Shown here: positions 3,586-54,628 of the stretch, piece after piece
Layout: every line of letters starts with the position of its first letter
Position numbering within the stretch: the stretch's first letter is position 1
Source of the DNA: a virus
Direction: 5' to 3' (one strand)
Virus record (IMG/VR): IMGVR_UViG_3300030085_004590
Location: 32,001-96,000 of that record
DNA: 64,000 nt
The notes under the pieces: generated by a model
The model's database searches: none
The model's input: the letters and a program-made list of their open reading frames with translations, nothing else
Told to the model about the DNA's origin: nothing
Program-made: the position numbers and the translations under genes

Positions 3586-3594
3586 ATATTTATA
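3586..3594 (+). promoter_or_regulatory. ATATTTATA putative late-promoter motif
   Basis: Recurring intergenic 9-mer, 16 nt before the tail fibre ATG. Confidence 0.65.
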
Positions 3595-14209: not shown

Positions 14210-14218
14210 ATATTTATA
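14210..14218 (+). promoter_or_regulatory. ATATTTATA motif
   Basis: Occupies the 25-nt gap before the ATG at 14234. Confidence 0.65.
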
Positions 14219-25168: not shown

Positions 25169-26307
25169 AATTTATATTTTTATTTGATGAAGAATATCCA
25201 TCATGGTCTTTTCGAGGACCATTTACTGATTATATTCAAAACAATTTTGAGTATAGTTTTATAGATGATATAGATAAATCAAAAAATAATATTTTAATCA
25301 TTGAAGGAACTGAATGTTTTAAAGGACCACACAGAGTTTTTAAAAAAGAACTCTATGATTTAATTAAAGAAAATAATTTAAAGGTAATTTTTGCATCAAT
25401 TGCTGACCCATGTACTTGGTCTGATAAGATTAACTTTATGAATGATATAAATTCATACGGTCTGAAAGATAAAGTTTATTATGTGGATACTTGTGTAAAT
25501 CATTCTGAAGATTACAATACTTTTTGTTATCATCATTTTTTAGAAGAACCTGGTATTCATATGAAAAAGTGGGGAGATTTTAAATTTTTTGAAGAAAATG
25601 AATTAGGATATAAAAGTGAAGATATAACACTTGAAGAATTAGATATTTTTAGAAATAAAAAGTTTTTATCATTTAATAGAACAGTTGATAAAGATAATAG
25701 AATGAGTTTATTTCACACTTATCTTGAAAATGATTTTTCAGATTCTTATTTTAGTTTTCTTAATTTTTGTGCATCAGATGGTTCAGTACCATTTTTTACA
25801 AAAAGTAAAAAATTATCAATCGATGAATATAAAAGTAAACTCCCAATTGAGTTAGATACTAAAAATAGTGGAGTTAATTTACAAAGTTTTAAAACAAGTA
25901 ATACTTTTAAAAAAGATTTATTTTTAAATTCATGTATTAACATTGTTACTGAAACATCGTTTCAATGTAATGGATTATTTTTATCAGAAAAAATAATAAA
26001 ACCAATTGTATGTTACCAACCCTTCATAGTTGTAGGACCTTATAATTACTTAAAAGAATTACGAAGTTTGGGATACAAAACTTTCTCTGATTTTTGGGAT
26101 GAAAGTTATGATGAAATAGAAAATGGTGAAGATAGATATTTTGCAATTGAAAAATTAATTTTAGAATTAAATAGTAAAAGTATTAATGAATTAAATGAAA
26201 TTTATCAAAAAACTAAAAATATATGTATATATAATAGAGAGGTATTTAATAACTTCAAGGAAGATTCCATTCCTAACATAATAAAACAAATAGAAAATGA
26301 ATGGTAA
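25153..26307 (+). CDS. Putative glycosyltransferase-like protein, paralogue 2
   Basis: FLSFNR, INIVTET, SEKIIKPI, QPF, LGYKTFSDFWDESYD. Confidence 0.55.
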   Translation: MGSILKFIFLFDEEYPSWSFRGPFTDYIQNNFEYSFIDDIDKSKNNILIIEGTECFKGPHRVFKKELYDLIKENNLKVIFASIADPCTWSDKINFMNDINSYGLKDKVYYVDTCVNHSEDYNTFCYHHFLEEPGIHMKKWGDFKFFEENELGYKSEDITLEELDIFRNKKFLSFNRTVDKDNRMSLFHTYLENDFSDSYFSFLNFCASDGSVPFFTKSKKLSIDEYKSKLPIELDTKNSGVNLQSFKTSNTFKKDLFLNSCINIVTETSFQCNGLFLSEKIIKPIVCYQPFIVVGPYNYLKELRSLGYKTFSDFWDESYDEIENGEDRYFAIEKLILELNSKSINELNEIYQKTKNICIYNREVFNNFKEDSIPNIIKQIENEW

Positions 26308-27262
26308 AAAGGTTTTAATCACAGGTGCTAATGGATTAGTAGGAAATTACACCGTACAAAAATGTATCGATAGAGGTGCATTCGTAACTGCAGTTGATAT
26401 TGTTGAACCAACAAATCAAATCGAAAAATATAAGGATGAAAATTATCAATTCATCAAAGCAGATTTAAGAGAATTTAAAAGTTGTAAAAGAGTTGTCGAA
26501 GGACAAGATATAATACTTCATATTGCAGGTGTTAAAGGTTCACCTAAAAGAGCAATGGAACAACCAGCAGATTATTTTGTACCAATGTTACAATTTAATA
26601 CCAATATGATGGAAGCAGCAAGATTAGAAGATGTAGAGTGGTATGTATATACATCGACTGTTGGTGTTTATCAACCCGCTGAGGTATTTTATGAGGATGA
26701 TGTATGGAAAACCTTCCCATCAGAAAAAGATAAGTATGCTGGATGGGCAAAGAGATTGGGTGAATTACAAGCTGAAGTATATTCAGTATCATTCGATTGG
26801 AATAAAGCATCAGTTGTAAGACCAGCAAACATTTATGGTAGACATGACAACTTCGGACCAGAATCAACAGTAATCGCTTCACTTATTAAAAGATTATTTG
26901 GTGAAAAAGAACATCCACTAATTTGTTGGGGAGATGGAACACCAATCAGAGATTTTATTTATGCTGGTGATGTTGCAGATGGAATCATAAAAGCATACGA
27001 ACAAAAATTAACACAACCAATCAATTTAGGTAGTGGTACTGGTGTTACTATTAAAGAACTTGCAGAAACTCTCGTAGAAATATACGAAGATATGTATGGA
27101 GTTAAAGTTGGTATCGAATGGGATACTACAAAACCAAATGGTGATGCAAAAAGATTAATGAGTACAGAAAGAGCAGAATCTTTCGGTATCAAACAACAAG
27201 TATCCTTAAAAGAAGGATTAAAAGAAACAATAGATTATTATTTAAATGAATTTAAAAAATGA
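26297..27262 (+). CDS. GDP-L-fucose synthase-like NDP-sugar epimerase/reductase
   Basis: GANGLVG, RPANIYG, WGDGTPIRDFIY, INLGSG, WDTTKPNG. Confidence 0.85.
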   Translation: MNGKKVLITGANGLVGNYTVQKCIDRGAFVTAVDIVEPTNQIEKYKDENYQFIKADLREFKSCKRVVEGQDIILHIAGVKGSPKRAMEQPADYFVPMLQFNTNMMEAARLEDVEWYVYTSTVGVYQPAEVFYEDDVWKTFPSEKDKYAGWAKRLGELQAEVYSVSFDWNKASVVRPANIYGRHDNFGPESTVIASLIKRLFGEKEHPLICWGDGTPIRDFIYAGDVADGIIKAYEQKLTQPINLGSGTGVTIKELAETLVEIYEDMYGVKVGIEWDTTKPNGDAKRLMSTERAESFGIKQQVSLKEGLKETIDYYLNEFKK

Positions 27263-28251
27263 AAAAAACAGATAAAATTTTAGTTACCGGAGCAAGTGGA
27301 TTTATAGGTTCACGATTAATCAAAATGTTATATGAATTAGGTTATGTAAACATTCGTGCAACATCATGGAGTAGAGATTTACGAAATGATTTTGAAGGCT
27401 GTGAAAACATAGAACACATAAAAGGAAACTTGCAAGATGCAGACTTTTGTGAGATAGTGTCGAAAGGATGTGATGTTATATTTCATGCAGCTGCTAATAC
27501 ATCGAACGCATTAGATACAAAATATAATCCGCTTCTCCATGTAACTCCCAATATAGAAATGAATGTAAATCTTATGGAACAATCATGGAAACATGGGGTT
27601 AAAAAGTTTATCTTTATATCATCAAATACAACTTATCCAGATTTAAAAGATGTACCTTGTACCGAAGATGTAGAAGTACAAACACCAGATATCGTACCAG
27701 TTTACAAAGCAGTAGGTTGGATGAAAAGATATTGTGAAACTCTTTGTGATTTCTTTTCAAATCAAATTCACAACCCAATGCAGTGTGTAATTATTAGACC
27801 TTCAAATGCATTTGGACCAAACGATAAGTACGATTTTGAAAAATGTCATGTTACACCTGCAAATATTAGAAAAGTTGCAGATAACCTAAATCCAATACCT
27901 GTTTGGGGAGATGGTACTGAAGTAAGAGATGTAATTCATGTTGATGATATGGTGAGTGGATTTATAACAGTTGCTGAAAAGGTTGATACATATGATATTT
28001 ACAATGTATCTTATGGTGAAGGATATACTGTTATGGAAGTACTTGATAAAATTAAAGAAATCGAAGGAAACACAAACCCAGTCGAATTCGTAAACAACAA
28101 GGCACCAATGATACCTGTCAGATTATTAGATAATCAAAAATTAAAAGATTTAGGTTGGACACCAAAATACGATTTAGAAAGTGGATTAAGAGATGCACTA
28201 TCTTGGTATAAGGAAAATAAAGACCAATTTAATCCAAATTCAAAACCTTAA
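27259..28251 (+). CDS. Second GDP-fucose-synthase-like epimerase/reductase
   Basis: GASGFIG, FGPNDKYD, HVTPA, WGDGTEVRDVIHVDD. Confidence 0.85.
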   Translation: MKKTDKILVTGASGFIGSRLIKMLYELGYVNIRATSWSRDLRNDFEGCENIEHIKGNLQDADFCEIVSKGCDVIFHAAANTSNALDTKYNPLLHVTPNIEMNVNLMEQSWKHGVKKFIFISSNTTYPDLKDVPCTEDVEVQTPDIVPVYKAVGWMKRYCETLCDFFSNQIHNPMQCVIIRPSNAFGPNDKYDFEKCHVTPANIRKVADNLNPIPVWGDGTEVRDVIHVDDMVSGFITVAEKVDTYDIYNVSYGEGYTVMEVLDKIKEIEGNTNPVEFVNNKAPMIPVRLLDNQKLKDLGWTPKYDLESGLRDALSWYKENKDQFNPNSKP

Positions 28252-30347: not shown

Positions 30348-30356
30348 ATATTTATA
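30348..30356 (+). promoter_or_regulatory. ATATTTATA motif
   Basis: 22 nt upstream of the 1803-aa ORF. Confidence 0.65.
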
Positions 30357-30378: not shown

Positions 30379-33300
30379 ATGAACAAACTCTCACAATTTC
30401 TTGTAGAGCAAATGCTCCTAGAGGATGAAAGTCCTATTAAGAAGGTCGTAGTAGTATATGGTGGTAGGTTTCAACCTATGCACAAAGGACACTACGGTAC
30501 ATACCAACATCTTGTCAAAAAATTCGGTAGAAATAATGTTTTTATCAGTACTTCCAACAAAGTAGAAAGACCAAAATCACCTTTTAACTTCAAAGAGAAG
30601 GTGAAAATCATGACTACAATGTTCAATATACCTAAATCAAAAATAGTACAGGTAAAAAACAATTATGCTCCAACAGAAATCCTCAAAAAATACGATAAAA
30701 ACACAACCGCCTTCATAACCGTTGTTGGTGAAAAGGATGCAGGAAGATTGGGTGGAAAGTATTTCAAACCATGGAAAGGAAAAGCAGAGGTTGGTTATGA
30801 GGATGGTGGTTATGTTTATGCCGCACCATCAAGTGGTGGTGGTATAAGCGGAACTGAAACTCGTAATGGGTTATCAGTAGGGTCGGATGACCAGAAGAAG
30901 TCTTTCTTTAAATCTCGTGCATATGGAAAGTTCAATGCAACGATTTTTAAGATGATTACGGACAAACTTAATGAGGGAGTAATCGAGATTTCTAAAGAAA
31001 GGATTGAAGAATGGCTCATCAACGAAAGTTCGAAGATGAGTTCAGGTCAAGTGGATGATGGGCCAAACTTCTTTTTCCCTAACTATGATGTATATTCTCG
31101 TATCAATGTAAAAAGAGCAGCAAAGATTGGATTTGAGGTAGTAAATATGATTACTTCTAAAGAAATCGAGGATTACTATGACCATCCAAGTTATCCTGAT
31201 GGGCCAGTAAAGGCAGTTACTTATTTCCCTGCTGGTGTTTTGGGTACAACAACCGCAACAAACCAAATTGATATTTATTCATCAAAAGCGTATTCCGATT
31301 GGTACAAACATTCAACTCGTAAAGCATCAATGGTTGGTTATGAGTTAGTTAAATCACTTGCAAATAAAGAAGATTTAAAACAAGATAAAGAACAATCAGT
31401 AGAAGATGCAAAAGGAGATAAGGTTTCTCAGAAAGAATACGAAGCATCTTTAAATGAAGCAATTACATTACCAGTTGAAGTTGGTGATACAATTCTAACT
31501 GGTAGATTTAAAAACAAAAAAACAGTTGTTAAAACTATTGGTAAAGATGAACATGGAATGCCAACTATTAATGGTAGAAAAGTTGTAAACTTTAGATTAG
31601 TGAAAGAAGGATTCCAAGCAATTTTTGAAGATGATGCAGATAAATATACTCATGTAGGTGGTGGTAACTACAAACCAAAAGGAAAAGAAGATGATGAAGA
31701 TGCACCTACTTTCAATAAAGATGGAGATAGATTTGTTCAAGTAGATAAAGGTGGTGATGATAAACCACAAGATGCTAAATCAAAAATTAGTGGTAAAGAT
31801 ATGTTCAAACATTCACCAGATATTAAAAAAGAAAAAGAACCCAAAAAACAAGGATTCTTTTCTAAATTATTTGGTCTACCAAGTTCACCAGAAGAAAAGA
31901 AAAAAGTACTTACACTTAAAAGTATAGAAAATGTAGATGATAAAGAGTTTGCAAAACACATTAAGAAAAAAGTATTACCAAACCTACCAGATAAAAGTAA
32001 AGAAGAACTTAAACCTATTTTACAAAAGTATGTTGAACTAAAAAAACAACTTAAGAAAACAGATGATGATGATGAACAATCAGAAATAATGTATAAACAA
32101 GATAAGATTCGTGATTATGTTTATGATTATACAAAAGAAAAAATGAATGAGATTGCTGGTACGGCAGTTGATTGTGAAAAGTGTAATCACTCTTGGGATA
32201 TAGAGGCAAATGATAATGAAAAATATTTATGTCATAATTGTGGATGGGATTCACAAAAACAAGAGTATGATTATGATGCATTTGATTCATGGCAGGAAAA
32301 AATGGGATTGAATGAAAGAAGTAAAGGTAAATTAAGACCTGCTGATTTACTAAGAAGAAAAGCAGCAATGGCTGGTAAACGAGCTGCAATTGCAAGAAGA
32401 AGAAAAAGAACTATGATGAGGAGAAAACCTCTTGCTAAACTAAAAAAGATTGCATACAAAAAAGCATACCTACAAGTTTATGATGAGTTTATGAAGGATT
32501 TATTTCCTGGTATGAAGAAAAAGGATTTATCAATCCAACAAGCAAAGATAGTTCATAAGAATGTATTAAGAAAAAAGAAAAGAGTTCTTAAAAGAGCAAG
32601 ATTTAAATTCTTACCTGCTTTAAGAGCAAAAGAGGCAGAAAAATTCGGTGATAAATCAGAAACAAACGAATTAATGATTGGATATGCAGGACCTGAAGAT
32701 ATGAAAAGGTTTGCAAAGAGAAATAAAGAATATAGAAAAGATGCTGAATCAAGTAAGGAGTATCAATACGAACCAATTAAAGAACAATCAGATAAAAAAA
32801 CACAATGTATCAATAACTTTGTAGAATATGCTTGTAAAAGATTAAAACTTGATGGTAATCCAAAGATATCTTTGATGAGTGGTACAGAATATGCAGATAC
32901 TCATAAAAGTTTAGGTGGTTTCAATCCACAAACAAAAGAAATCTATGTTGCAACTGAAAATAGATTAACTGCTGATATTTGTAGAACGATTGCACATGAA
33001 TTAGTTCATAGAAAACAAGATGAGATGGGATTATTAAAAGACCCAATCAAAGATGGAGCAGATGGTTCACCGATTGAAAATCAAGCACATGCAGTTGCAG
33101 GAATTATAATGAGAGAATATGGTAGAATTGATGATACAATTTACCAAGAAGGAATTAACTCTTTTTATTACGATGATTTAGCAAAGTATGTTTACAAAAA
33201 AAGAGGAGAGATTAACAGATTATTCAAAAACTTACCTGATGAGAAAAAGGCTGAGTATTTAGAAAAACTTTACATCAAATTATTCCAGGGCCCAACTTCA

Positions 33301-35790
33301 AGAATGGTACATAGAGATATCAAAGGTAAGGGTGGTGAATTATTAAAGATGTTGAGAAAGGATAGAAGATTAAAAGAACAATGTGAAAGATTACCAAACG
33401 AATCAGAACAAGATTACAGAAGGAGATGTTTTGGTTACAATCCTTTAACTCCACCACCTGCAGGATTACAAAGATTAGGTGAGAATAAAGCAACAAGAAC
33501 AAAATTCAATTTAACAATACCTTCTGATATTAAAAAACTTCAAAAGGCATTTAAGAAAGATAAAAAACAACTTTATGTAGTTGGTGGAGCAGTTAGAGAT
33601 GCACTTCTTGGTAAAAAACCAAAAGATTTTGATTTAACAACAGATGCAACACCAGAAGAAATGATTAAGATTGCGAAACAAGGTAAATTTAAACATTCTA
33701 CAACAAATGTAAATGCAAATCTTGATTTAGGAAGTATAATCATCAATGGACACGAAGTAACTACATTCAGACAAGATGTTGGTAAAGGTAGGAGACCAGA
33801 TAAAGTAGTTTATTGTGATATTTCAACAGATTCTAAGAGAAGAGATTTAACTTGTAACTCTTTATACTACGATATTGATAAAAAAGAGATTATTGATTTC
33901 CATGGTGGTGTAGAAGATTTGAAAAAAGGAGTTATTAGAACAGTTGGTAAAGCAAAAGAAAGATTTGATGAGGACCCATTAAGAAAATTAAGAGCAGTAA
34001 GGTTCGAAACTCGATTAGGTGCTAAATTAGATAAAGAAACTTTAGATGCACTTAAAAAAGATAACAAAATAACACAACTTTCATATCAAAGAATAAGTGA
34101 TGAGTTTATAAGTGCAATAAAACAATCAAAAAACACTAAAGTTTACTTAGATAGATGTGATGAAGTTGGGTTTACACCACAAATTCTACCAGGTCTTAAA
34201 GTAAGTAAACCATATCCACACGATAATAACCCAATTACTTTAATGGCATTTATTCTAAGAGATAATGACCCTGCAAAAGTAGGTAAAATATTAAATAAAA
34301 TCAATTATAGTAATGAAATTAAAGATGCAATAGTGTTTTTAATATCATTAAAAGGATTTAAACCTGAATTGATTGTACCATTTAAGAAACTACATGATAA
34401 AATAAAGTTATCAGATAGTGATATTGTAGATTTTGGTAAAAGAATTGGTAAAAAACTTGATAAATTTGTTAAATTCAAGTTATCTGTAAAAGGAAAAGAT
34501 GTACCAAAGGATATACCCGATGGGCCAGAGAAAGGTTTGTGGATAAAGAATAGAGAAAAAGAACTATTCATGAAAGAAGGTATCCTTACAGAAGGTGGTG
34601 CGTATGGACATATGTCTCACCCATTCGATACTGATATCAATTTAACCTTTGGACAACTAAAAGATATCGTAAATCGTGCACTCGAAGGTACACTTGAATT
34701 CACAAGAGAGAAAACTGATGGTCAAGCTCTTGCAATTTCATGGAGAGATGGAAGATTAGTAGCAGCAAGAAACAAAGGACACCTAAAAAACAAAGGTGAG
34801 AACGCTTTAGATATCAAAGGAGTATCAGATAAGTTCCAAGGTAGAGGTGGATTATCAGATGCATACAATTATGCGATGAAAGACCTTTCAAATGCAATCA
34901 AAGCACTTACAGATAAACAAAGAGATAAGATTTTTAAACAAGGTGCGTGTTTTATGAACCTTGAAGTGATATATCCAACATCAGTTAATGTCATTCCTTA
35001 CGGCCAGGCGTTACTTGTGTTCCATGGAACGATGGAATATGATATGGAAGGTAAGGCAATTGGTGAAAATGGTGAAGCAGCAAGAATATTAGCTGGTATG
35101 ATTAAACAAGTTAACAAAGATGTACAAGATAACTACACTATTCAAGGGCCACCAATTGTAAAGTTACCTAAATCACAAGATTTATCAAAGAAAAGAGCAA
35201 AATATTCATCTCAAATCTCTAAATTACAAAAAGAATTCAAATTAAAGGATACAGATGGTGTTGCAAACTATCATCAAGCATGGTGGGAACAATGGGTTGA
35301 TAAAAACTCACCAACAACACTCGATAATAAAACCAAAATGGGGTTAGTTAAGAGATGGGCTTTCATGGATAAGAAATTTAGATTGGATAATAAGAATATT
35401 TCTGATTCTAAAACACTTGAATGGGCTAAGAAAACAGATAAAGATAATCATAAGAAGATATCAAAAGATAATCTAATGAAGTTTGAGAAAATCTTCTTAG
35501 GATTAGGTGCAGAAGTATTAGAATTTACTTCATCTGCACTTACAGTTAATCCTGATAAGGCAGTTCGTGATATAAAGAAACGAATTGATAAAACAATCAA
35601 AGATGTTAAGAAATCAGGTGACCCAAAAAAGATAGAAAAACTAAAATTAGAACTTGGTAGGTTAAATTCTATTGGTGGTTCTAAGAAAATTGTACCAAAT
35701 GAAGGTATAGTATTTTTATATAAAGGAAATACTTTTAAACTTACAGGTACATTTGCATCTGTAAACCAAATCCTTGGTATTTTCTTCTAA
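30379..35790 (+). CDS. Multidomain putative polyprotein: HxGH nucleotidyltransferase + Zn ribbon + basic domain + HExxH peptidase + CCA-adding/tRNA nucleotidyltransferase + ligase-like domain
   Basis: GGRFQPMHKGH; CEKC...CHNC; IAHELVH; VGGAVRD...DFD...RRD...EDPLR; EKTDG...NLEV...EGIVF...FKLTG. Confidence 0.85.
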   Translation: MNKLSQFLVEQMLLEDESPIKKVVVVYGGRFQPMHKGHYGTYQHLVKKFGRNNVFISTSNKVERPKSPFNFKEKVKIMTTMFNIPKSKIVQVKNNYAPTEILKKYDKNTTAFITVVGEKDAGRLGGKYFKPWKGKAEVGYEDGGYVYAAPSSGGGISGTETRNGLSVGSDDQKKSFFKSRAYGKFNATIFKMITDKLNEGVIEISKERIEEWLINESSKMSSGQVDDGPNFFFPNYDVYSRINVKRAAKIGFEVVNMITSKEIEDYYDHPSYPDGPVKAVTYFPAGVLGTTTATNQIDIYSSKAYSDWYKHSTRKASMVGYELVKSLANKEDLKQDKEQSVEDAKGDKVSQKEYEASLNEAITLPVEVGDTILTGRFKNKKTVVKTIGKDEHGMPTINGRKVVNFRLVKEGFQAIFEDDADKYTHVGGGNYKPKGKEDDEDAPTFNKDGDRFVQVDKGGDDKPQDAKSKISGKDMFKHSPDIKKEKEPKKQGFFSKLFGLPSSPEEKKKVLTLKSIENVDDKEFAKHIKKKVLPNLPDKSKEELKPILQKYVELKKQLKKTDDDDEQSEIMYKQDKIRDYVYDYTKEKMNEIAGTAVDCEKCNHSWDIEANDNEKYLCHNCGWDSQKQEYDYDAFDSWQEKMGLNERSKGKLRPADLLRRKAAMAGKRAAIARRRKRTMMRRKPLAKLKKIAYKKAYLQVYDEFMKDLFPGMKKKDLSIQQAKIVHKNVLRKKKRVLKRARFKFLPALRAKEAEKFGDKSETNELMIGYAGPEDMKRFAKRNKEYRKDAESSKEYQYEPIKEQSDKKTQCINNFVEYACKRLKLDGNPKISLMSGTEYADTHKSLGGFNPQTKEIYVATENRLTADICRTIAHELVHRKQDEMGLLKDPIKDGADGSPIENQAHAVAGIIMREYGRIDDTIYQEGINSFYYDDLAKYVYKKRGEINRLFKNLPDEKKAEYLEKLYIKLFQGPTSRMVHRDIKGKGGELLKMLRKDRRLKEQCERLPNESEQDYRRRCFGYNPLTPPPAGLQRLGENKATRTKFNLTIPSDIKKLQKAFKKDKKQLYVVGGAVRDALLGKKPKDFDLTTDATPEEMIKIAKQGKFKHSTTNVNANLDLGSIIINGHEVTTFRQDVGKGRRPDKVVYCDISTDSKRRDLTCNSLYYDIDKKEIIDFHGGVEDLKKGVIRTVGKAKERFDEDPLRKLRAVRFETRLGAKLDKETLDALKKDNKITQLSYQRISDEFISAIKQSKNTKVYLDRCDEVGFTPQILPGLKVSKPYPHDNNPITLMAFILRDNDPAKVGKILNKINYSNEIKDAIVFLISLKGFKPELIVPFKKLHDKIKLSDSDIVDFGKRIGKKLDKFVKFKLSVKGKDVPKDIPDGPEKGLWIKNREKELFMKEGILTEGGAYGHMSHPFDTDINLTFGQLKDIVNRALEGTLEFTREKTDGQALAISWRDGRLVAARNKGHLKNKGENALDIKGVSDKFQGRGGLSDAYNYAMKDLSNAIKALTDKQRDKIFKQGACFMNLEVIYPTSVNVIPYGQALLVFHGTMEYDMEGKAIGENGEAARILAGMIKQVNKDVQDNYTIQGPPIVKLPKSQDLSKKRAKYSSQISKLQKEFKLKDTDGVANYHQAWWEQWVDKNSPTTLDNKTKMGLVKRWAFMDKKFRLDNKNISDSKTLEWAKKTDKDNHKKISKDNLMKFEKIFLGLGAEVLEFTSSALTVNPDKAVRDIKKRIDKTIKDVKKSGDPKKIEKLKLELGRLNSIGGSKKIVPNEGIVFLYKGNTFKLTGTFASVNQILGIFF

Positions 35791-35814: not shown

Positions 35815-35823
35815 ATATTTATA
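35815..35823 (+). promoter_or_regulatory. ATATTTATA motif
   Basis: Intergenic, before the ATG at 35851. Confidence 0.65.
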
Positions 35824-35850: not shown

Positions 35851-36510
35851 ATGGGTAAAGAATTCAAAAAGAAATATATGCACCCAACTCGTAGAAAGTT
35901 GGTAAACATGATAAAGACCGGTGAGTATGAAAAAAATACTACAATCGGTTGGAATGCTAAGAAAGAAGAAAGAAAAGTTGGTGATGTTTGGGAAGATGAA
36001 CATCATAGATATGAAAAGAAAGAGGGATATACTCTTAAAACCAACAAAAACTCAGAAACATTCCAAGAAATTAGAAAATATTTAGAAGAAAAATCTAAAT
36101 GTAAGAATTCTGAATGTAAAACAAAGAAAATTACAGCAAAAGATAAAAAGTTCATTGAAAAGGGTGGTTTTTGTATAAATTGTACTGCAGATAGAGAACA
36201 TAATATAAGAACTGCAGGATTATGGGAAGATTACCAAAATTATAAGGTATGGACTAGAATGATAATCTATGGTAAAAATAAATTAGAACAATATAGAGAA
36301 TCATTAGGTGATTTAAAAGAAGAATATCACATGCATAACGACCAAGGAGAAATAACTGAAACTTGGAAGTTACCAAAACCAATTGATGAGGTTCGAGCAG
36401 AAATACAAGAACTCATTGATTATGGTGAAGGGGAAATAAAAGAGTTGGAAGCAAAAAAGGAAGAAGCTTTTAACAAAATAAAGGAAAAAAATTATGAACA
36501 TTATATTTAA
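35851..36510 (+). CDS. Hypothetical protein with Cys cluster and coiled coil
   Basis: 219-aa ORF; CKNSEC...CINC. Confidence 0.7.
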   Translation: MGKEFKKKYMHPTRRKLVNMIKTGEYEKNTTIGWNAKKEERKVGDVWEDEHHRYEKKEGYTLKTNKNSETFQEIRKYLEEKSKCKNSECKTKKITAKDKKFIEKGGFCINCTADREHNIRTAGLWEDYQNYKVWTRMIIYGKNKLEQYRESLGDLKEEYHMHNDQGEITETWKLPKPIDEVRAEIQELIDYGEGEIKELEAKKEEAFNKIKEKNYEHYI

Positions 36511-37183: not shown

Positions 37184-38776
37184 ATGGCAAAAACATCTTT
37201 AAAAGATATAATCAAGATTGAGTATCAGAAATGTGCCTCAGACCCAATACACTTCATGAAGAAGTATTGTATGATTCAACATCCTGTCCGAGGTAAGATA
37301 CCATTTCACTTATTTCCTTTTCAAGAAAGAACTTTAGATGAATTTACCAAACATAGATACAACATTATTCTAAAATCAAGACAGACAGGTATCTCAACCT
37401 TAACTGCAGGATTTGCATTATGGAAAATGTTGTTTAATCAAGATTTTAATGTATTAGTTATTGCGACTAAACAAGAAGTTGCTAAGAACCTTGTAACGAA
37501 GGTTCGTGTAATGAACCAATACTTACCAAGTTGGTTAAAACAAACAACAGTAGAAGATAACAAACTATCTCTACGATACTCCAATGGTTCACAAATCAAA
37601 GCAACATCAGCAGCTGGTGATGCTGGTCGTTCTGAAGCATTATCCTTATTAGTATTTGATGAGGCAGCTTTCATTGATAAGATTGAAGATATATGGATAT
37701 CAGCACAATCTACCCTTTCAACAGGTGGTAACGCAATTATCCTTTCAACACCCAATGGTGTCGGAAATTTCTTTCACAAAACTTGGGTAGGTGCAGAAGA
37801 AGAAGAAAATGGGTTCAATACAATCAGATTACATTGGACAGTTCATCCTGAAAGAAATCAAGATTGGAGAGATGAACAAGAAAAGTTATTGGGAGTAAAA
37901 GGTGCAGCACAAGAATGTGATTGTGATTTCGTTTCTTCTGGTGATACAGTTATTGACCCACAACTTTTACAATTTTACAAAGAATCTTATATTCAAGAAC
38001 CAATTGAAAAGACAGGATTTGATGGAAACCTTTGGAAATGGGAATATCCAAATTACAACAAAGGTTACATGGTTGTTGCCGATGTTGCGAGAGGAGATTC
38101 AACCGATTATTCGGCATGTCATGTAATTGATATTGAACAAGCAACTCAAGTTGCAGAATATAAAGGTAAATTAGATACAAAAGATTTTGGAAACTTTCTT
38201 GTATCACTTGCAACTGATTACAATCAAGCATTACTTGTTATTGAGAATGCAAATATTGGTTGGGCAGTAATACAACAAGTAATTGATAGAGGTTATCAAA
38301 ATCTATTCTACATGAGTAAGGATTTAAAATATGTAGATGTTGAACATCAACTATCAAATAGATATAGAGCCGAGGAACGAGGAATGGTTGCAGGATTTTC
38401 TACAACTTCTAAAACACGACCTTTGATTATATCAAAGTTAGATGATTATTTTAGAGATAAATCAGTAACAGTTCGTTCAGCAAGATTAATCGATGAATTA
38501 TTCACTTTTATATGGAAAGGAAATAGGGCAGAAGCAATGCAAGGATACAACGATGATTTAACAATGTCATTCGCAATTGGTCTTTGGGTTAGAGATACTG
38601 CACTTAGATTAAGACAAGAAGGAATTGATTTAACTAAACAAGCATTGGGTGGTATTGGAGCACATCAATTAGATATTGCAGGTATGGGATTTGGTGGTAA
38701 TACTCAATTAGAAGATAATCCTTGGAAACAAAGAGTTGGTGATAGAGATGAGGATTTAACTTGGTTAATTAAATAA
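37184..38776 (+). CDS. Terminase large subunit (T4 gp17-like)
   Basis: PFQ, KSRQTGIST Walker A, VFDEAAF Walker B, STPNG, ADVARG nuclease motif, DDL. Confidence 0.95.
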   Translation: MAKTSLKDIIKIEYQKCASDPIHFMKKYCMIQHPVRGKIPFHLFPFQERTLDEFTKHRYNIILKSRQTGISTLTAGFALWKMLFNQDFNVLVIATKQEVAKNLVTKVRVMNQYLPSWLKQTTVEDNKLSLRYSNGSQIKATSAAGDAGRSEALSLLVFDEAAFIDKIEDIWISAQSTLSTGGNAIILSTPNGVGNFFHKTWVGAEEEENGFNTIRLHWTVHPERNQDWRDEQEKLLGVKGAAQECDCDFVSSGDTVIDPQLLQFYKESYIQEPIEKTGFDGNLWKWEYPNYNKGYMVVADVARGDSTDYSACHVIDIEQATQVAEYKGKLDTKDFGNFLVSLATDYNQALLVIENANIGWAVIQQVIDRGYQNLFYMSKDLKYVDVEHQLSNRYRAEERGMVAGFSTTSKTRPLIISKLDDYFRDKSVTVRSARLIDELFTFIWKGNRAEAMQGYNDDLTMSFAIGLWVRDTALRLRQEGIDLTKQALGGIGAHQLDIAGMGFGGNTQLEDNPWKQRVGDRDEDLTWLIK

Positions 38777-38780
38777 TTAT

Positions 38781-38789
38781 ATATTTATA
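38781..38789 (+). promoter_or_regulatory. ATATTTATA motif followed by AAGGAG (38794-38799)
   Basis: Intergenic, before 38808. Confidence 0.65.
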
Positions 38790-39225: not shown

Positions 39226-40962
39226 ATGGCAGATACTTCATTTTTTGGTAGATTAACGAAACTATTCAGAGCTCAAGCGGTGGTTACCATCGATAAGCAG
39301 GGTAGAAGAAAAGTTGTAGATACCGATGAAAGACAACAAACGAATCTATCATCTCTAAGAGATAGATACACTAAGATTCAGAAATCTTTCTTCGAACAAG
39401 CAGGTGGTGCACAATCAATGGCATACCAACAAGTTCGTAGAGAGGTATTCAGAGATTATGATGCAATGGATAACGACCCAATATTAGCATCAGCACTTGA
39501 TATATACGCAGATGAATCAACTCTTAAAAACGAGTTTGGTAATCAACTTACAATTGTATCAGATAATGATAAAGTACAAGAAATACTAAGAAACTTATTT
39601 TACGATATTCTTAACATTGAGTTCAACTTATGGCCATGGGTAAGAAATATGTGTAAGTATGGAGATTTCTTCTTAGGTTTAGAAATCGCCGAAGGTAAAG
39701 GTATCGTAAATGTTACTCCTCACTCTGTTTACAATACAGAAAGATTAGAAAGAACAGACCCATCAAATCCAAATTCAGTAAAGTTCAAAATTACTGAGGA
39801 CCCGAATGGTAAAGAAGAATATGAAAACTTTGAAATAGCTCACTTTAGATTATTAGCGGATACTAACTGGTTGCCTTATGGTAAATCCATGATTGAGAAT
39901 GGTAGAAGATTGTGGAAACAGTTATCTCTAATGGAAGATGCTATGTTAATCCATAGAATCATGAGAGCACCAGAAAAGAGAGTATTCAAAGTGGACATAG
40001 GAAATATCCCTCCAACAGAGGTTGATAACTATATGCAAAGAATCATCAATAAAATGAAGAAAGTTCCTTTCGTTGATAGAAATACTGGTGATTACAACTT
40101 AAAGTACAATATGCAAAATCTAACTGAAGATTTCTACTTACCAGTTAGAGGTGGTGATAGTGGTACAAACATTGAAAACCTTGCAGGTTTAGAATATGCA
40201 ACTATCGAAGATATTGATTACTTAAAAAACAAATTATTTGCAGCTCTTAAAATTCCAAAAGCTTATTTAGGATATGAAGAAAACATTGCAGGTAAAGCAA
40301 CTCTTGCTGCTGAAGATGTTAGATTTGCAAGAACAATCGAAAGAATTCAAAGAACAGTAATTTCAGAATTAACTAAAATTGCAATCGTACATTTATACTC
40401 ACAAGGTATTCAAGATTCAGAAATGGTTAACTTTGAATTACAATTAGTAAATCCATCATTTATTTACGAACAAGAAAAAGTAAACTTGTGGAGTGAAAAA
40501 ATTAGATTGGCTCAAGATATTCAAGGATTGAATATGTTATCTAAAGATTGGGTATATGATAATATTTTCAAATTATCAGATGCTGAATCAGATGAACAAA
40601 AAATTAAGATGATTGATGATTTAAAAGATAGATTTAGATTCAGGTCTATTGAGGATGAAGGTAATGACCCAGCAATGGAAGATGAAGAACCAGATGATAT
40701 CGAAGAATCTTTAGAAAAACTTAAACAAGAAATCAAAGATAAAGGTGGTAGACCAAGAGAAGGTGGAACTTATGGAAAAGATAAACATCCATATGGTAGA
40801 GACCCACTTGGAAATAAAGAAAGAAAAGATGCAAAGAAGAATACAACTTCTGAAGAAAAAGCTTTAAAATATATTAGTGGAATTGCATCAAAAAGAAAGT
40901 ATTTACACGAAATAAAAGATATGTTAGACGAGGATAATATCCTCAAAGATACAGAAAATTAA
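39226..40962 (+). CDS. Portal protein (T4 gp20-like)
   Basis: MEDAMLIHRIMRAPEKRVFKVDIGN, EDFYLPVRG, DIDYL...ALKIP. Confidence 0.95.
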   Translation: MADTSFFGRLTKLFRAQAVVTIDKQGRRKVVDTDERQQTNLSSLRDRYTKIQKSFFEQAGGAQSMAYQQVRREVFRDYDAMDNDPILASALDIYADESTLKNEFGNQLTIVSDNDKVQEILRNLFYDILNIEFNLWPWVRNMCKYGDFFLGLEIAEGKGIVNVTPHSVYNTERLERTDPSNPNSVKFKITEDPNGKEEYENFEIAHFRLLADTNWLPYGKSMIENGRRLWKQLSLMEDAMLIHRIMRAPEKRVFKVDIGNIPPTEVDNYMQRIINKMKKVPFVDRNTGDYNLKYNMQNLTEDFYLPVRGGDSGTNIENLAGLEYATIEDIDYLKNKLFAALKIPKAYLGYEENIAGKATLAAEDVRFARTIERIQRTVISELTKIAIVHLYSQGIQDSEMVNFELQLVNPSFIYEQEKVNLWSEKIRLAQDIQGLNMLSKDWVYDNIFKLSDAESDEQKIKMIDDLKDRFRFRSIEDEGNDPAMEDEEPDDIEESLEKLKQEIKDKGGRPREGGTYGKDKHPYGRDPLGNKERKDAKKNTTSEEKALKYISGIASKRKYLHEIKDMLDEDNILKDTEN

Positions 40963-40980
40963 TTAATCTTATATAATTTT

Positions 40981-40989
40981 ATATTTATA
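40981..40989 (+). promoter_or_regulatory. ATATTTATA motif
   Basis: Intergenic, after portal. Confidence 0.65.
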
Positions 40990-47493: not shown

Positions 47494-47502
47494 ATATTTA
47501 TA
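47494..47502 (+). promoter_or_regulatory. ATATTTATA motif upstream of bS21
   Basis: 30 nt before the ATG at 47533. Confidence 0.65.
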
Positions 47503-51012: not shown

Positions 51013-51021
51013 ATATTTATA
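51013..51021 (+). promoter_or_regulatory. ATATTTATA motif restarting transcription after the terminator
   Basis: Between terminator and neck gene; AAGGAG at 51040-51045. Confidence 0.7.
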
Positions 51022-54263: not shown

Positions 54264-54628
54264 GTTCAAAACCAAAACCAAATGTAATAACTCCTTTCGA
54301 TGATAAACAAAGGTTTAAGAATCTTGTATTAGAGGTAATTAAAGACATGGAAGTTTTTAATCATGTACCTGATTCTATTTCATTAGATGGTAATAATTTT
54401 ACACTTACTTTATCTAATAAAAAACTTGTTTATCAAGATGTATCTGTTGATTCCCTCTCCGATTATGTGGATGTTTTTCTACAAGGAGTAAAAAAACCAT
54501 CAGATATTTATTCGGTTACTGATAATGGAACAAATGTAGTAATAGTTTTTACTGAAAGTATCACACTAAGTCCTGGTGATATAGTGAATACAGATTTTTC
54601 AGTAAAAGGAAAGATAGTGAGTAGATAA
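54260..54628 (+). CDS. Hypothetical virion protein
   Basis: Coupled ORF; DVFLQGV, similar beta module. Confidence 0.55.
   Translation: MSSKPKPNVITPFDDKQRFKNLVLEVIKDMEVFNHVPDSISLDGNNFTLTLSNKKLVYQDVSVDSLSDYVDVFLQGVKKPSDIYSVTDNGTNVVIVFTESITLSPGDIVNTDFSVKGKIVSR

What the first reader, a model, noticed from the sequence alone, without database searches (positions are those of the whole stretch)
33487..34570. CCA-adding (class II tRNA nucleotidyltransferase) domain embedded mid-protein
Seen: motif A VGGAVRD...KDFD, motif B RRDLTCN, templating motif EDPLR; no poly(A) polymerase G(R/K)RF signature. The flexible loop after the basic/acidic motif (RQD-VGKGRRP) looks short and lacks the usual Tyr. Established: loop deletions turn CCA enzymes into CC-adding ones. 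Inference: it restores tRNA 3' ends, but CCA versus CC versus A specificity is open.
Basis: partly seen in the sequence, partly recalled or inferred. Interest (0 to 1): 0.75.

Follow-up and report, generated by a model that had tools for sequence, protein, structure and literature searches.

The report
Phage CCA-adding domain in repair megaprotein
A complete tRNA CCA-adding enzyme sits inside a 1803-residue phage protein, between an NMNAT-like enzyme domain and a previously unnamed RNA-ligase-like domain, and the whole most likely rebuilds damaged tRNAs during infection.

Summary
Window 33487-34578 encodes residues 1037-1400 of one 1803-aa ORF (30379-35790, +). They form a complete class II tRNA nucleotidyltransferase (Pfam PolyA_pol E 8e-30). 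The AF2 model (pLDDT 90.8) overlays whole CCA-adding enzymes (TM 0.73).

The stretch between the basic/acidic motif and RRD is 20 residues, against 21 in the human CCA enzyme and 23 in two Bacillales enzymes. It is invariant in length in 101 of 101 relatives and carries a conserved GKGRRP. The poly(A) polymerase signature is found in 0 of 101. The downstream motif is (E/Q)RxxxE, the CCA/CC type, not the A-adding/PAP type. Full CCA addition is the best guess, but it is untested.

The larger point is the context. The record is a 123-kb T4-like marine phage. The ORF reads: NMNAT-like HIGH nucleotidyltransferase, Zn-ribbon, basic stretch, HExxH zincin-like domain, CCA enzyme, and a C-terminal KxDG domain with no Pfam, PHROG or NCBIfam model. 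That last domain folds like RNA ligases (top 8 of 48,161 chains, Z 7.6-8.5) and occurs in 1756 protein clusters.

Relatives shuffle HD phosphoesterase and kinase modules into the same scaffold. This looks like a modular phage RNA-repair protein: a new variant of a known kind.

The parts
30349..30356 (+). TATTTATA motif ending 23 nt upstream of the ATG; candidate phage promoter element shared with structural genes
   Evidence: 21 of the 23 sites have this orientation. 9 of those 21 end 16-53 nt upstream of the start of an ORF of 100 aa or more.
30379..35790 (+). Single 1803-aa ORF (P0001), the multidomain protein that holds the finding
   Evidence: Identical or near-identical ORFs occur in other assemblies.
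30379..30978 (+). HIGH-motif (cytidylyltransferase-like, NMNAT-like) nucleotidyltransferase domain, aa 1-200; GRFQPMHKGH at 30463-30492, ISGTETR at 30844-30864
   Evidence: Pfam PF01467 E 1e-6; PHROG 395 E 5e-11; weak NadM/NMNAT NCBIfam hits; PDB MJ0541 NMNAT E 0.023 with a near-identical GRFQPFHKGH. Conserved in 194 distinct family sequences.
30979..31383 (+). Conserved module of unknown function, aa 201-335
   Evidence: phmmer finds it in 158 of the 505 proteins held. Also present in the 915-aa ORF of LR756508.1.
32173..32241 (+). CxxC...CxxC zinc-ribbon, aa 599-621
   Evidence: Read from the sequence; weak HypA match E 0.0097; found in 57 of 120 CCA-bearing relatives.
32299..32718 (+). Lys/Arg-rich basic stretch, aa 641-780
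   Evidence: Read from the sequence; found in 58 of 120 relatives. Function not tested.
32719..33123 (+). Zincin-like HExxH domain, aa ~781-915; HELVH at 32995-33009, with a conserved Glu downstream
   Evidence: Alignment of 25 family sequences keeps HExxH and a downstream E. Weak Pfam DUF6782 hit, E 0.28. Atlas lead to Peptidase_M78, carried by 14% of one cluster's members. A lead, not a proof.
33487..34578 (+). Complete class II tRNA nucleotidyltransferase (head, neck, body, tail), aa 1037-1400. Motif A 33583-33633; B/A motif plus loop 33766-33798; motif B 33838-33858; motif C region 33901-33921; motif D 33970-33984; QRISDE 34087-34104
34579..35787 (+). C-terminal RNA-ligase-like covalent nucleotidyltransferase domain, aa 1401-1803. 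Motif I EKTDGQ 34708-34725; AARNKG 34762-34779; motif III NLEVIY 34957-34974; motif IV EGIVF 35701-35715; motif V FKLTG 35734-35748. An insert of about 200 aa, mostly helical, lies between motifs IIIa and IV
   Evidence: Invariant K, D, G, R, E, Y, EG and K in 30 of 30 sequences. AF2 pLDDT 88.9. VIA-align Z 7.6-8.5 to eight RNA ligases. Weak Foldseek rows are nearly all RNA ligases. BFVD hits.
35851..36510 (+). Conserved downstream neighbour, 219 aa, unknown function
   Evidence: BLASTP E 5e-10 to the ORF that follows the homologous gene in LR756508.1. No Pfam or PHROG hit.

Best explanation
Residues 1037-1400 are a catalytically intact, full-length class II tRNA nucleotidyltransferase. It most likely adds the complete CCA to tRNA 3' ends (inferred).

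It is one module of a large phage protein built on a conserved scaffold: an N-terminal NMNAT-like HIGH nucleotidyltransferase and a C-terminal RNA-ligase-like domain. Different phages have inserted different RNA-end-processing modules into that scaffold: the CCA enzyme, an HD phosphoesterase, a P-loop kinase, a zincin-like peptidase and a Zn-ribbon.

The proposed mechanism runs as follows. During infection of a marine host by this T4-like phage, host or competitor nucleases cut tRNAs or trim their 3' ends. The ligase domain reseals breaks that carry 5'-phosphate and 3'-OH ends. The CCA domain rebuilds the acceptor end, so translation of phage proteins continues.

Shown here: the domain identities, the motif integrity, the folds, the fusion, and its wide occurrence. 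Inferred: the substrates, the CCA (rather than CC or A) specificity, the ligase activity and its RNA preference, any cooperation between modules, and any processing by the zincin-like domain.
For: CCA domain:
- Pfam PF01743 E 7.8e-30 and PHROG 2244 E 1.3e-49.
- The AF2 model has pLDDT 90.8. It overlays whole CCA-adding enzymes: Planococcus 6qy6 (E 8e-18, TMq 0.73 over 372 columns of a 373-residue chain), human 4x4w (0.71) and Bst 1miv (0.67). E. coli PAP 3aql reaches only 0.58.
- With the family profile, the best PDB sequences are bona fide CCA enzymes (1miv 1.3e-41, 6ibp 1.6e-40, 4x4w 2e-38), just ahead of PAP (2.7e-38).
- In 101 distinct family domains, GGAVRD, DxD, TFRxD, GRRP, RRD and EDPLR are conserved.
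- In the same 101: the PAP signature occurs in 0; the distance from the B/A acid to RRD is 20 residues in all 101; the residue before RxxxE is E in 89, D in 5, Q in 4, N in 2 and K in 1, and never a small residue. By the criteria quoted in PMC2910056 this excludes PAP, loop-deleted CC-adding enzymes and A-adding enzymes.

Ligase-like domain:
- The motifs KxDG, ARN, E, Y, EGxxF and K are invariant in 30 of 30 sequences.
- The AF2 model has pLDDT 88.9 and pTM 0.84.
- The eight best of 48,161 PDB chains are all RNA ligases: Trl1, REL1, NgrRnl, T4 Rnl2 and T4 Rnl1, at Z 8.5-7.6 with 182-206 residues aligned. DNA ligases reach at most 6.8 and capping enzymes at most 5.6.
- The protein ends 13 residues after motif V, with no OB domain.

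Scaffold and modularity:
- The C-terminal domain has 1756 cluster representatives at E <= 0.001.
- Of the 150 best, 146 carry it at the extreme C-terminus, 104 carry the HIGH domain and 7 carry a CCA domain.
- Of 120 long CCA-bearing proteins, 114 have the ligase-like domain, 113 the HIGH domain and 69 an HD domain.
- P0087 reads HIGH-DUF5661-AAA_33 kinase-HD-CCA-ligase, which is a complete heal, seal and CCA set.

Phage context:
- Large terminase, portal and major head genes follow the ORF.
- The major capsid protein is gp23-like. Its nearest relatives are LR756508.1, Microcystis phage Mel-JY01 and Flavobacterium phage immuto.
- Phage CCA enzymes and RNA ligases are described as RNA-repair counter-defence in passages of PMC7824862.
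Against: - No activity was measured.
- None of the NCBIfam equivalog models reaches its cut-off. The best are the pcnB subfamily at 159 bits (cut-off 305.65) and CCA PRK13299 at 150 bits (cut-off 290).
- With the single sequence, E. coli PAP is the top PDB hit: 7e-32 against 4e-29 for a CCA enzyme.
- A full-length loop does not guarantee A addition, because eukaryotic CC-adding enzymes keep theirs (PMC7014341).
- The window's own residue before RxxxE is Q, not the consensus E.
- Only the best AF2 model of the CCA domain is confident. The other four have pLDDT 73.8-79.5.
- The ligase-like fold matches are middling. Foldseek against the PDB gives no hit at E <= 0.001. VIA Z of about 8 is in the range the tool calls common. 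hhalign against T4 Rnl1 is not significant (probability 0.58, E 0.1), although it puts KxDG on Rnl1's KEDG.
- This phage record has no HD, AAA_33 kinase or Pfam RNA_ligase gene. [quoted passage not shown]
- No defence system or damaged-tRNA substrate is known for this host.
Confidence: 0.6

Rival explanations
1. The domain has restricted specificity. It would be a CC-adding or an A-adding enzyme working with a host or phage partner.
For: The loop is 2-3 residues shorter than in the Bacillus-type enzymes and has no Tyr. Eukaryotic CC-adding enzymes keep a full-length loop and lose A addition through point changes (PMC7014341), so sequence alone cannot exclude this. The window has Q where CCA and CC enzymes have E before RxxxE.
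Against: There is no loop deletion: 20 residues against 21 in human TRNT1. The B/A motif RxD is present and conserved. The loop GKGRRP is nearly invariant, which argues that it is used. No small residue occupies the position before RxxxE that marks A-adding enzymes, in 0 of 101 sequences. The 123-kb record holds only one PF01743 match, so no partner enzyme is seen.
Confidence: 0.17
2. The domain works as a poly(A) or other RNA-tailing polymerase, marking host RNAs for decay or tailing other RNAs, rather than repairing tRNA.
For: The best single-sequence PDB hit is E. coli PAP I at 6.7e-32. The best NCBIfam model is the pcnB subfamily at 159 bits.
Against: The PAP signature [LIV][LIV]G[RK][RK]Fx[LIV]h[HQL][LIV] is absent in 0 of 101 sequences. 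The (E/Q)RxxxE motif is of the CCA type. The fold is closer to CCA enzymes (TM 0.73 against 0.58). The family profile ranks three CCA enzymes above PAP. The pcnB score is about half its cut-off.
Confidence: 0.08
3. The domain is a housekeeping maturation enzyme for phage-encoded tRNAs that lack an encoded CCA, not a repair or counter-defence enzyme.
For: Many large phages that carry CCA enzymes also carry tRNA genes (passages of PMC7824862). The record is estimated to be only 64% complete.
Against: ARAGORN finds 0 tRNA genes in the window and 0 on the whole 123,353-bp record. There is no Rfam match in the window. Fusion to a ligase-like domain, and in relatives to HD and kinase modules, points to repair.
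Confidence: 0.1
4. The ORF is a polyvalent protein in the sense of Iyer et al. 2017. It would be made late, packaged in the capsid, injected with the DNA, and cut into separate enzymes by its own zincin-like domain. The CCA enzyme would then act in the first minutes of infection. This refines the best explanation rather than excluding it.
For: The protein joins disparate enzymatic domains with an HExxH domain, as the paper describes (passages of PMC5512222). The gene lies two genes upstream of the large terminase and portal genes. It carries the same upstream TATTTATA motif as several structural genes. Modules are shuffled extensively between relatives.
Against: No MuF, portal or other known packaging domain was found. 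The quoted passages say that RNA ligases were never seen with the 2H domains of polyvalent proteins. Only 37 of 120 CCA-bearing relatives and 18 of 150 ligase-domain representatives have the HExxH domain. There are no virion proteome data. The virion-detected 'cytidylyltransferase' of cyanophage S-SZBM1 (PMC9146016) could not be linked by tblastn. Only a weak structural link to the S-PM2 protein exists (E 6e-4, TMq 0.42).
Confidence: 0.25

Closest known systems
Class II CCA-adding enzymes (Planococcus halocryophilus 6QY6/6IBP, Geobacillus stearothermophilus 1MIV, human TRNT1 4X4W)
   Same: Motifs A, B, C and D, the B/A motif and a flexible loop are all present. The head-neck-body-tail fold is the same, with TM 0.67-0.73 over about 370-400 columns.
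   Different: Only 24-27% identity. The domain is embedded in a 1803-aa protein. The loop is 2 residues shorter than the Bacillales type and lacks its Tyr. The window has Q instead of E before RxxxE. It scores below every NCBIfam equivalog cut-off.
E. coli poly(A) polymerase I (PcnB, 3AQK-3AQN)
   Same: It has the same catalytic core and is the highest single-sequence PDB hit, at 6.7e-32.
   Different: The PAP signature is absent in 0 of 101 sequences. The residue before RxxxE is not small. The structural fit is poorer, at TM 0.54-0.58.
Stand-alone phage tRNA nucleotidyltransferases (PHROG 2244; Aeromonas, Vibrio and Caulobacter phages) and CCA-HD enzymes
   Same: The domain is the same. tblastn finds 451 phage records, with 27-35% identity among the listed rows. 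Environmental relatives occur as stand-alone proteins of 364-480 aa or as CCA-HD proteins of 530-635 aa, at 50-60% identity.
   Different: Here the domain is fused between a zincin-like domain and a ligase-like domain. No record of the 50,697-record phage collection covers 80% or more of the ORF.
T4 tRNA repair (Pnkp plus Rnl1) and fungal Trl1
   Same: It shares the logic of healing and sealing broken tRNAs. The C-terminal domain's best structural matches are Trl1, T4 Rnl1 and T4 Rnl2. Relatives add kinase and phosphoesterase modules.
   Different: The ligase-like domain has no significant sequence similarity to Rnl1 and matches no Pfam RNA-ligase model. It has an insert of about 200 residues before motif IV. 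This phage record lacks kinase and phosphoesterase genes. The CCA enzyme is part of the same polypeptide.
Polyvalent proteins of phages (Iyer et al. 2017, PMC5512222)
   Same: It is a very large multidomain protein that joins disparate enzymes with a zincin-like HExxH domain, and its architectures are shuffled.
   Different: No known packaging domain was found. The RNA-repair content (ligase plus CCA enzyme) is not among the passages read.
'Cytidylyltransferase-like protein' of Microcystis phage Mel-JY01 (WWT39297, 639 aa) and the 915-aa ORF of huge phage LR756508.1
   Same: They share the same HIGH-domain and ligase-like-domain scaffold and the same position upstream of the packaging genes. 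The downstream neighbour is also conserved.
   Different: They lack the roughly 1000-residue middle part that holds the Zn-ribbon, the zincin-like domain and the CCA enzyme.

Membership tests
Class II tRNA nucleotidyltransferase (CCA-adding enzyme) | Motif A, GGxVRD followed by the DxD catalytic carboxylates | tested here: met
   GGAVRD at aa 1069-1074 and DFD at 1083-1085. Conserved in 101 family domains.
Class II tRNA nucleotidyltransferase (CCA-adding enzyme) | Motif B (RRD) and motif D (EDxxR, the templating residues) | tested here: met
   RRDLTCN at 1154-1160 and EDPLR at 1198-1202. Both align to the same motifs of 1miv, 6ibp and 4x4w.
Class II tRNA nucleotidyltransferase (CCA-adding enzyme) | [quoted passage not shown] | tested here: met
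   R1131-Q-D1133 is followed by VGKGRRP. There are 20 residues to RRD in 101 of 101 sequences, against 21 in human and 23 in the Bst and Planococcus enzymes, counted from the alignments.
Class II tRNA nucleotidyltransferase (CCA-adding enzyme) | ERxxxE downstream of the core (CCA and CC type), as opposed to sRxxxE (A-adding and PAP type) | tested here: inconclusive
   The window has QRISDE. The family has E in 89, D in 5, Q in 4, N in 2 and K in 1 of 101, and never a small residue. The criterion comes from PMC2910056.
Class II tRNA nucleotidyltransferase (CCA-adding enzyme) | Head-neck-body-tail fold covering a whole enzyme | tested here: met
   TMq 0.73 and TMt 0.72 to 6qy6 over 372 columns.
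Class II tRNA nucleotidyltransferase (CCA-adding enzyme) | Score above a curated equivalog cut-off (NCBIfam) | tested here: not met
   PRK13299 scores 150 bits against a cut-off of 290, and TIGR02692 scores 120.6 against 438.8. Pfam PF01743 itself is far above its cut-off: 104 bits against 23.
Class II tRNA nucleotidyltransferase (CCA-adding enzyme) | Adds C, C, A to tRNA 3' ends | not testable with these tools
   This needs an enzyme assay.
Bacterial poly(A) polymerase I | Signature [LIV][LIV]G[RK][RK]Fx[LIV]h[HQL][LIV] after motif A | tested here: not met
   The regex matches 0 of 101 family domains. The criterion comes from PMC2910056.
Bacterial CC-adding enzyme | Deletion of the flexible loop of 10-12 residues | tested here: not met
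   The loop region has the same length as in human TRNT1.
ATP-dependent RNA ligase / covalent nucleotidyltransferase superfamily (C-terminal domain) | Motifs I (KxDG), III (E), IIIa (aromatic), IV (EG) and V (K) | tested here: met
   K51, D53, G54, E135, Y147, E381, G382 and K393 (domain numbering) are invariant in 30 of 30 sequences.
ATP-dependent RNA ligase / covalent nucleotidyltransferase superfamily (C-terminal domain) | Nucleotidyltransferase fold shared with Rnl1, Rnl2 and Trl1 | tested here: inconclusive
   VIA Z is 8.5-7.6 for eight RNA ligases, which rank 1-8 of 48,161 chains. However, Foldseek against the PDB gives no hit at E <= 0.001, and Z of about 8 is within the tool's 'common' range.
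ATP-dependent RNA ligase / covalent nucleotidyltransferase superfamily (C-terminal domain) | Match to a curated RNA-ligase sequence model | tested here: not met
   No Pfam, PHROG or NCBIfam model hits aa 1401-1803. 0 of 30 members hit an RNA-ligase Pfam, and 2 of 30 weakly hit DNA_ligase_aden at E 0.034. hhalign against T4 Rnl1 gives E 0.1.
NMN adenylyltransferase (NadM/archaeal type) for the N-terminal domain | HxGH and ISxTxxR motifs of HIGH nucleotidyltransferases, and specific similarity to NMNAT | tested here: inconclusive
   GRFQPMHKGH and ISGTETR are present. The superfamily Pfam model scores E 1e-6. The NMNAT-specific models score only 18-23 bits against cut-offs of 127-449. PDB NMNAT hits are at E 0.023-0.9.
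Polyvalent proteins (Iyer et al. 2017) | Several unrelated enzymatic domains in one phage polypeptide, often with a zincin-like peptidase | tested here: met
   The description comes from passages of PMC5512222.
Polyvalent proteins (Iyer et al. 2017) | Packaged in the virion and delivered with the DNA | not testable with these tools
   Only the position next to the packaging genes and a shared upstream motif are available.

The most novel reading that the evidence does not exclude
The conserved pair of an NMNAT-like HIGH nucleotidyltransferase and this unnamed C-terminal KxDG domain defines a new, very abundant family of phage RNA ligases: 1756 clusters at 50% identity, with no Pfam, PHROG or NCBIfam model. 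The family would serve as a chassis for plug-in RNA-repair modules. In this phage the chassis carries a full CCA-adding enzyme and a self-processing zincin, so one late-made and possibly virion-delivered protein both reseals cut tRNAs and rebuilds their acceptor ends. The obligatory HIGH domain may make or use the ligase's nucleotide cofactor; for example, NAD+ synthesis could feed an NAD+-using RNA ligase.
Probability: 0.3. Interest if true: 0.8.

Novelty: new variant of a known kind. Interest (0 to 1): 0.6.

Why it matters
Phage CCA-adding enzymes and phage RNA ligases are each known, and tRNA cleavage is a common bacterial defence.

What is new here is that the CCA enzyme is one exchangeable module in a large, widespread family of marine-phage proteins. 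The constant parts of that family are an NMNAT-like domain and a ligase-like domain that no curated library describes.

If the ligase-like domain is an RNA ligase, it would be a new family with an unusual insert and an unexplained obligatory partner domain. The family would also give a natural catalogue of which RNA-end chemistries phages need to repair.

The loop is not deleted, so there is no sequence reason to expect a CC-only enzyme.

Tried and rejected
1. The 'short loop = CC-adding' reading is rejected on loop length.

2. The PAP reading is rejected on the signature, the downstream motif and the fold.

3. I looked for a link between the N-terminal domain and the virion-detected 'cytidylyltransferase' of T4-like cyanophage S-SZBM1 (PMC9146016, passages).
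- tblastn of aa 1-335 against 50,697 phage records gave 22 records, none a cyanomyovirus.
- Only a weak BFVD structural row to the S-PM2 protein exists.
- I keep this as a lead only.

4. The Atlas lead to DUF6267 for the C-terminal domain scored 0.88, below the tool's 0.9 line. hmmscan of the 30 A1 members listed no such family among the 25 of 31 families shown.

5. The Atlas lead to Peptidase_M78 for the HExxH domain is carried by 14% of one cluster's members. It is kept only as a hint.

6. hhalign of A1 against T4 Rnl1 was not significant. Against T4 DNA ligase there was no motif alignment.

7. Foldseek against the PDB gave no hit at E <= 0.001 for the ligase-like model.

8. phmmer of the C-terminal domain against PDB sequences gave only chance-level rows.

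9. No tRNA genes, no Rfam family, and no HD, AAA_33 or Pfam RNA_ligase elsewhere on the record. The record is an estimated 64% complete fragment, so absence is not shown.

10. A genome-contig scan gave 16 loci. The nearest lie on contigs binned with marine Flavobacteriales/Flavobacteriaceae and Halobacteriovorax MAGs. One of them is another open ORF of at least 1731 aa. This is a weak host hint only.

11. Literature.
- Searches found no description of a CCA-RNA ligase-HIGH NTase fusion in the held library.
- The paper most likely to hold one, Burroughs and Aravind 2016 (NAR 44:8525), is not held, so I did not see it.
- Neuenfeldt et al. 2008 is also not held. Its content is cited only through PMC2910056 and PMC7014341.
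- Supplements of all papers were closed and may list such architectures.

12. The T4 Rnl1 residue names, the identities of the Aquifex PDB entries, and the dual tail-fibre-attachment role of T4 gp63 beyond the annotation line are recalled, not tested.

Full report
1. WHAT IS THERE

The finding's coordinates fall inside a single ORF, 30379..35790 on the + strand, 1803 aa. The region is a class II nucleotidyltransferase far beyond chance. Pfam PolyA_pol head domain scores E 7.8e-30 at aa 1065-1187. PHROG 2244 'tRNA nucleotidyltransferase' scores E 1.3e-49 at aa 1063-1325.

2. THE RECORD IS A PHAGE

The window is bases 32001-96000 of a 123,353-bp IMG/VR virus record, estimated 64% complete.
- All ORFs of 100 aa or more that are not shadows lie on the + strand.
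- Two small genes downstream come a large terminase (37184-38776) and a portal gene (39226-40962).
- Further on lie a gp23-like major head protein (49319-50923) and a head-tail adaptor.
- The capsid protein's nearest relatives are the 484-kb uncultured phage LR756508.1 (57.6%), Microcystis phage Mel-JY01 (52.5%), Flavobacterium phage vB_FspM_immuto (50.4%) and Rhodothermus phage RM378 (39%). This is a distant T4-like myovirus.

3. THE CCA DOMAIN

An AF2 model of aa 1037-1400, built with 23 environmental homologues (alignment A2), has mean pLDDT 90.8. The other four models score 73.8-79.5.

Foldseek against the PDB gives the following:

| Target | Enzyme | E-value | TMq |
|---|---|---|---|
| 6qy6 | Planococcus halocryophilus CCA-adding enzyme | 8e-18 | 0.73 (372 columns of a 373-residue chain) |
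| 4x4w | human TRNT1 | 2.8e-17 | 0.71 |
| 1miv | B. stearothermophilus CCA-adding enzyme | 3.1e-16 | 0.67 |
| 4wby | tRNA-processing enzyme (A-adding, by my recall) | 3.7e-16 | 0.65 |
| 3aql | E. coli PAP | 1.4e-14 | 0.58 |

The 364 residues therefore make a whole enzyme: head, neck, body and tail.

Sequence ranking depends on the query. With the single sequence, PAP is the top PDB hit (6.7e-32 against 3.6e-29 for the Planococcus enzyme). With the family profile the order turns: 1miv 1.3e-41, 6ibp 1.6e-40, 4x4w 2e-38, PAP 2.7e-38. No NCBIfam equivalog reaches its cut-off.

4. SPECIFICITY SIGNATURES

Passages of Hoffmeier et al. 2010 (PMC2910056) give working criteria:
- PAPs carry [LIV][LIV]G[RK][RK]Fx[LIV]h[HQL][LIV] after motif A.
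- Bacterial CC-adding enzymes have lost the flexible loop of 10-12 residues.
- A-adding enzymes and PAPs have sRxxxE downstream of the core, where CCA and CC enzymes have ERxxxE.

I extracted 124 full-length CCA domains from the proteins fetched. They reduce to 101 distinct sequences, at about 50-100% identity to the window. In those 101 sequences:
- The PAP signature occurs in 0.
- The number of residues between the acidic residue of the B/A motif and RRD is 20 in all 101.
- The residue before RxxxE is E in 89, D in 5, Q in 4 (the window among them), N in 2 and K in 1.

In the HMMER alignments, the family's 'tFRkD--iGkGRRPdavdy' aligns without a gap to human 'TLRIDVTTDGRHAEVEF'. It aligns with a 2-residue gap to Bst 'TFKTDgdYEDYRRPESVTF' and Planococcus 'TFRTEssYSDNRRPDSVEF'. 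The loop is therefore not deleted.

The Holozoan loop consensus DGRbAxV has none (PMC7014341). The window's GKGRRP keeps a Gly-Arg-basic core and the RRP of the other type, and it is almost invariant in the family.

I conclude that full CCA addition is the most likely activity. One caveat stands: eukaryotic CC-adding enzymes keep a full-length loop, so only an assay can settle this.

5. THE REST OF THE PROTEIN

- aa 1-200 is a HIGH-motif nucleotidyltransferase: Pfam CTP_transf_like E 1e-6 and PHROG 395 E 5e-11. Its GRFQPMHKGH is nearly identical to the GRFQPFHKGH of M. jannaschii NMNAT. The statistics are weak, though (PDB E 0.023; NCBIfam NadM models at 18-23 bits).
- aa 599-621 is a CxxC...CxxC zinc ribbon.
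- aa 641-780 is strongly basic.
- aa ~781-915 holds a conserved HExxH with a downstream Glu. Only weak leads point to zincin families.
- aa 1401-1803 has no Pfam, PHROG or NCBIfam match.

6. THE C-TERMINAL DOMAIN

An exhaustive HMMER search finds 1756 cluster representatives at E <= 0.001 (1272 at 1e-10, 554 at 1e-30). The word-indexed search finds 1944 proteins of 224-716 aa.

In an alignment of 30 sequences at 39-87% identity, the invariant residues spell the motifs of covalent nucleotidyltransferases:
- KxDG (K51, D53, G54)
- ARN (69-71)
- E135
- Y147
- EGxxF (381-385)
- K393

The AF2 model is confident (pLDDT 88.9, pTM 0.84). It shows a beta-rich N-terminal part, an insert of about 200 residues that is mostly helical, and a final beta-hairpin carrying motifs IV and V.

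Structure comparisons:
- Foldseek against the PDB gives no hit at E <= 0.001. Its weak rows are almost all RNA ligases.
- VIA-align against 48,161 representative chains puts eight RNA ligases at ranks 1-8: Trl1 9r3w (Z 8.5), REL1 1xdn (8.4), NgrRnl 5cot (8.3), T4 Rnl2 1s68 and 2hvq (8.2), T4 Rnl1 9do4 (8.1), and Trl1 6n0t (8.1) and 9qw7 (7.6). They align 182-206 residues that span model residues 1-409.
- DNA ligases follow at Z <= 6.8 and capping enzymes at Z <= 5.6. The tool warns that Z of about 8 is common, so the fold match alone is not decisive.
- BFVD gives TMq 0.94 and 0.93 to 'cytidyltransferase-like domain-containing proteins' of uncultured phages. Proteins annotated as viral RNA ligases appear from E 2e-3.
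- hhalign against T4 Rnl1 is not significant, although it is in register at KxDG and at the motif III Glu.

The protein ends 13 residues after motif V with no OB domain, as RNA ligases do.

I read the domain as an RNA-ligase-like enzyme of a family not yet covered by the curated libraries I could search.

7. THE FAMILY IS MODULAR

- Of the 150 best representatives of the C-terminal domain, 146 have it within 10 residues of the C-terminus. 104 carry the HIGH domain, 18 the HExxH domain, 7 a CCA domain and 4 an HD domain.
- The plain two-domain form exists in Microcystis phage Mel-JY01 (639 aa, annotated 'cytidylyltransferase like protein', seven genes upstream of its large terminase). It also exists in LR756508.1 (915 aa), where the next gene is homologous to the window's next gene (E 5e-10).
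- Searching long proteins with the CCA region gave 208 hits of 991-3156 aa.
- Of the 120 listed, 114 have the ligase-like domain, 113 the HIGH domain, 69 an HD domain, 57 the Zn-ribbon and 37 the HExxH domain, in at least 27 different orders. The window's order, HIGH-ZnR-HExxH-CCA-LIG, occurs in 6 of 120. The commonest order, with an extra HD, occurs in 23.
- P0087 carries HIGH-DUF5661-AAA_33 kinase-HD-CCA-ligase, which is every activity needed to heal, seal and re-tail a broken tRNA.
- P0003 has two CCA domains in tandem.
- The CCA clade also occurs as stand-alone and as CCA-HD proteins.

These fusions are the main reason to read both the CCA domain and the ligase-like domain as RNA repair.

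8. LIMITS OF THE REPAIR READING

The record has no tRNA gene and no Rfam match in the window. It also has no HD, AAA_33 or Pfam RNA_ligase gene. In this phage, as far as it is held, only breaks with 5'-P/3'-OH ends and trimmed 3' ends could be mended. The host and any tRNA-targeting defence are unknown. Contigs binned with marine Flavobacteriales MAGs hold the nearest cellular-collection relatives, which is a weak host hint.

9. EXPRESSION AND DELIVERY

The motif TATTTATA occurs 21 times on the + strand against 2 in the other orientation. The total of 23 compares with 12.7 expected, and no shuffle reached 23. Nine of the 21 end 16-53 nt before the start of an ORF of 100 aa or more. These include this ORF, the gene after it, the gene before the portal gene and the adaptor gene.

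This suggests co-regulation with structural genes. It fits, but does not show, the 'polyvalent protein' model of a packaged, self-processing multi-enzyme (passages of PMC5512222).

10. COMPARISON WITH WHAT IS KNOWN

Phage CCA-adding enzymes and RNA ligases are described as RNA-repair counter-defence in jumbo phages (passages of PMC7824862). Huge phages are noted to encode CCA-adding enzymes (legends in PMC7162821). In seven searches of the held library I found no description of a CCA enzyme fused into a HIGH-NTase/ligase scaffold, or of this ligase-like family. The most relevant survey, Burroughs and Aravind 2016, and all supplements could not be read.

11. VERDICT

- The domain itself is a new member of a known kind.
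- Its setting is a new variant of known phage RNA-repair and polyvalent-protein themes: an exchangeable module in a widespread, unnamed scaffold built from an NMNAT-like domain and an RNA-ligase-like domain.
- Interest: 0.6.

Noticed in passing
window, 21 sites, e.g. 3587-3594, 14211-14218, 30349-30356, 35816-35823, 38782-38789, 40982-40989, 47495-47502, 51014-51021: TATTTATA on the + strand is strongly orientation-biased (21 sites against 2) and enriched (23 in total against 12.7 expected). 9 of the 21 end 16-53 nt upstream of gene starts. It is a candidate phage promoter and is the reverse complement of the T4 late-promoter word TATAAATA (that identity is recalled)..
   Followed up: partly
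window 3611-10921 and 54628-60939: There are two giant ORFs. The 2436-aa one ends in a Peptidase_S74 intramolecular chaperone, which is typical of tail fibres or spikes. The 2103-aa one has a cadherin-like domain.
   Followed up: partly
window 26297-27262 and 27259-28251; 19410-20858: Two tandem paralogous nucleotide-sugar epimerase genes (PHROG 540, E 2e-48 and 5e-60) and a radical-SAM protein lie upstream of the megaprotein. They may form a glycan or nucleotide-sugar module.
   Followed up: no
window 35851-36510: A 219-aa protein with Cys pairs and no family match is conserved as the next gene after the homologous gene in huge phage LR756508.1 (E 5e-10). It could be a functional partner of the scaffold.
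   Followed up: partly
P0003 (1312 aa), P0005, P0008: P0003 carries two complete CCA domains in tandem, with an HD domain between them, ahead of the ligase-like domain. P0005 and P0008 have an extra partial CCA-like segment.
   Followed up: no
L004 835-6027: A 13-kb contig binned in a marine Flavobacteriales MAG holds another open megaprotein ORF of at least 1731 aa, with a CCA domain 51% identical to the window's. It is probably phage DNA in a MAG bin and gives a weak host hint.
   Followed up: partly
BFVD A0A0M6VVW4 (Synechococcus phage S-PM2, 591 aa) and A0A4Y5JUK8 (Pseudomonas phage PA5oct): Weak structural matches of the ligase-like model (E 6e-4 and 4.5e-4, TMq about 0.4) to a cyanomyovirus 'cytidyltransferase-like' protein. 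The same scaffold may exist, much diverged, in T4-like cyanophages. A protein of that name was detected in virions of one such cyanophage (PMC9146016)..
   Followed up: partly
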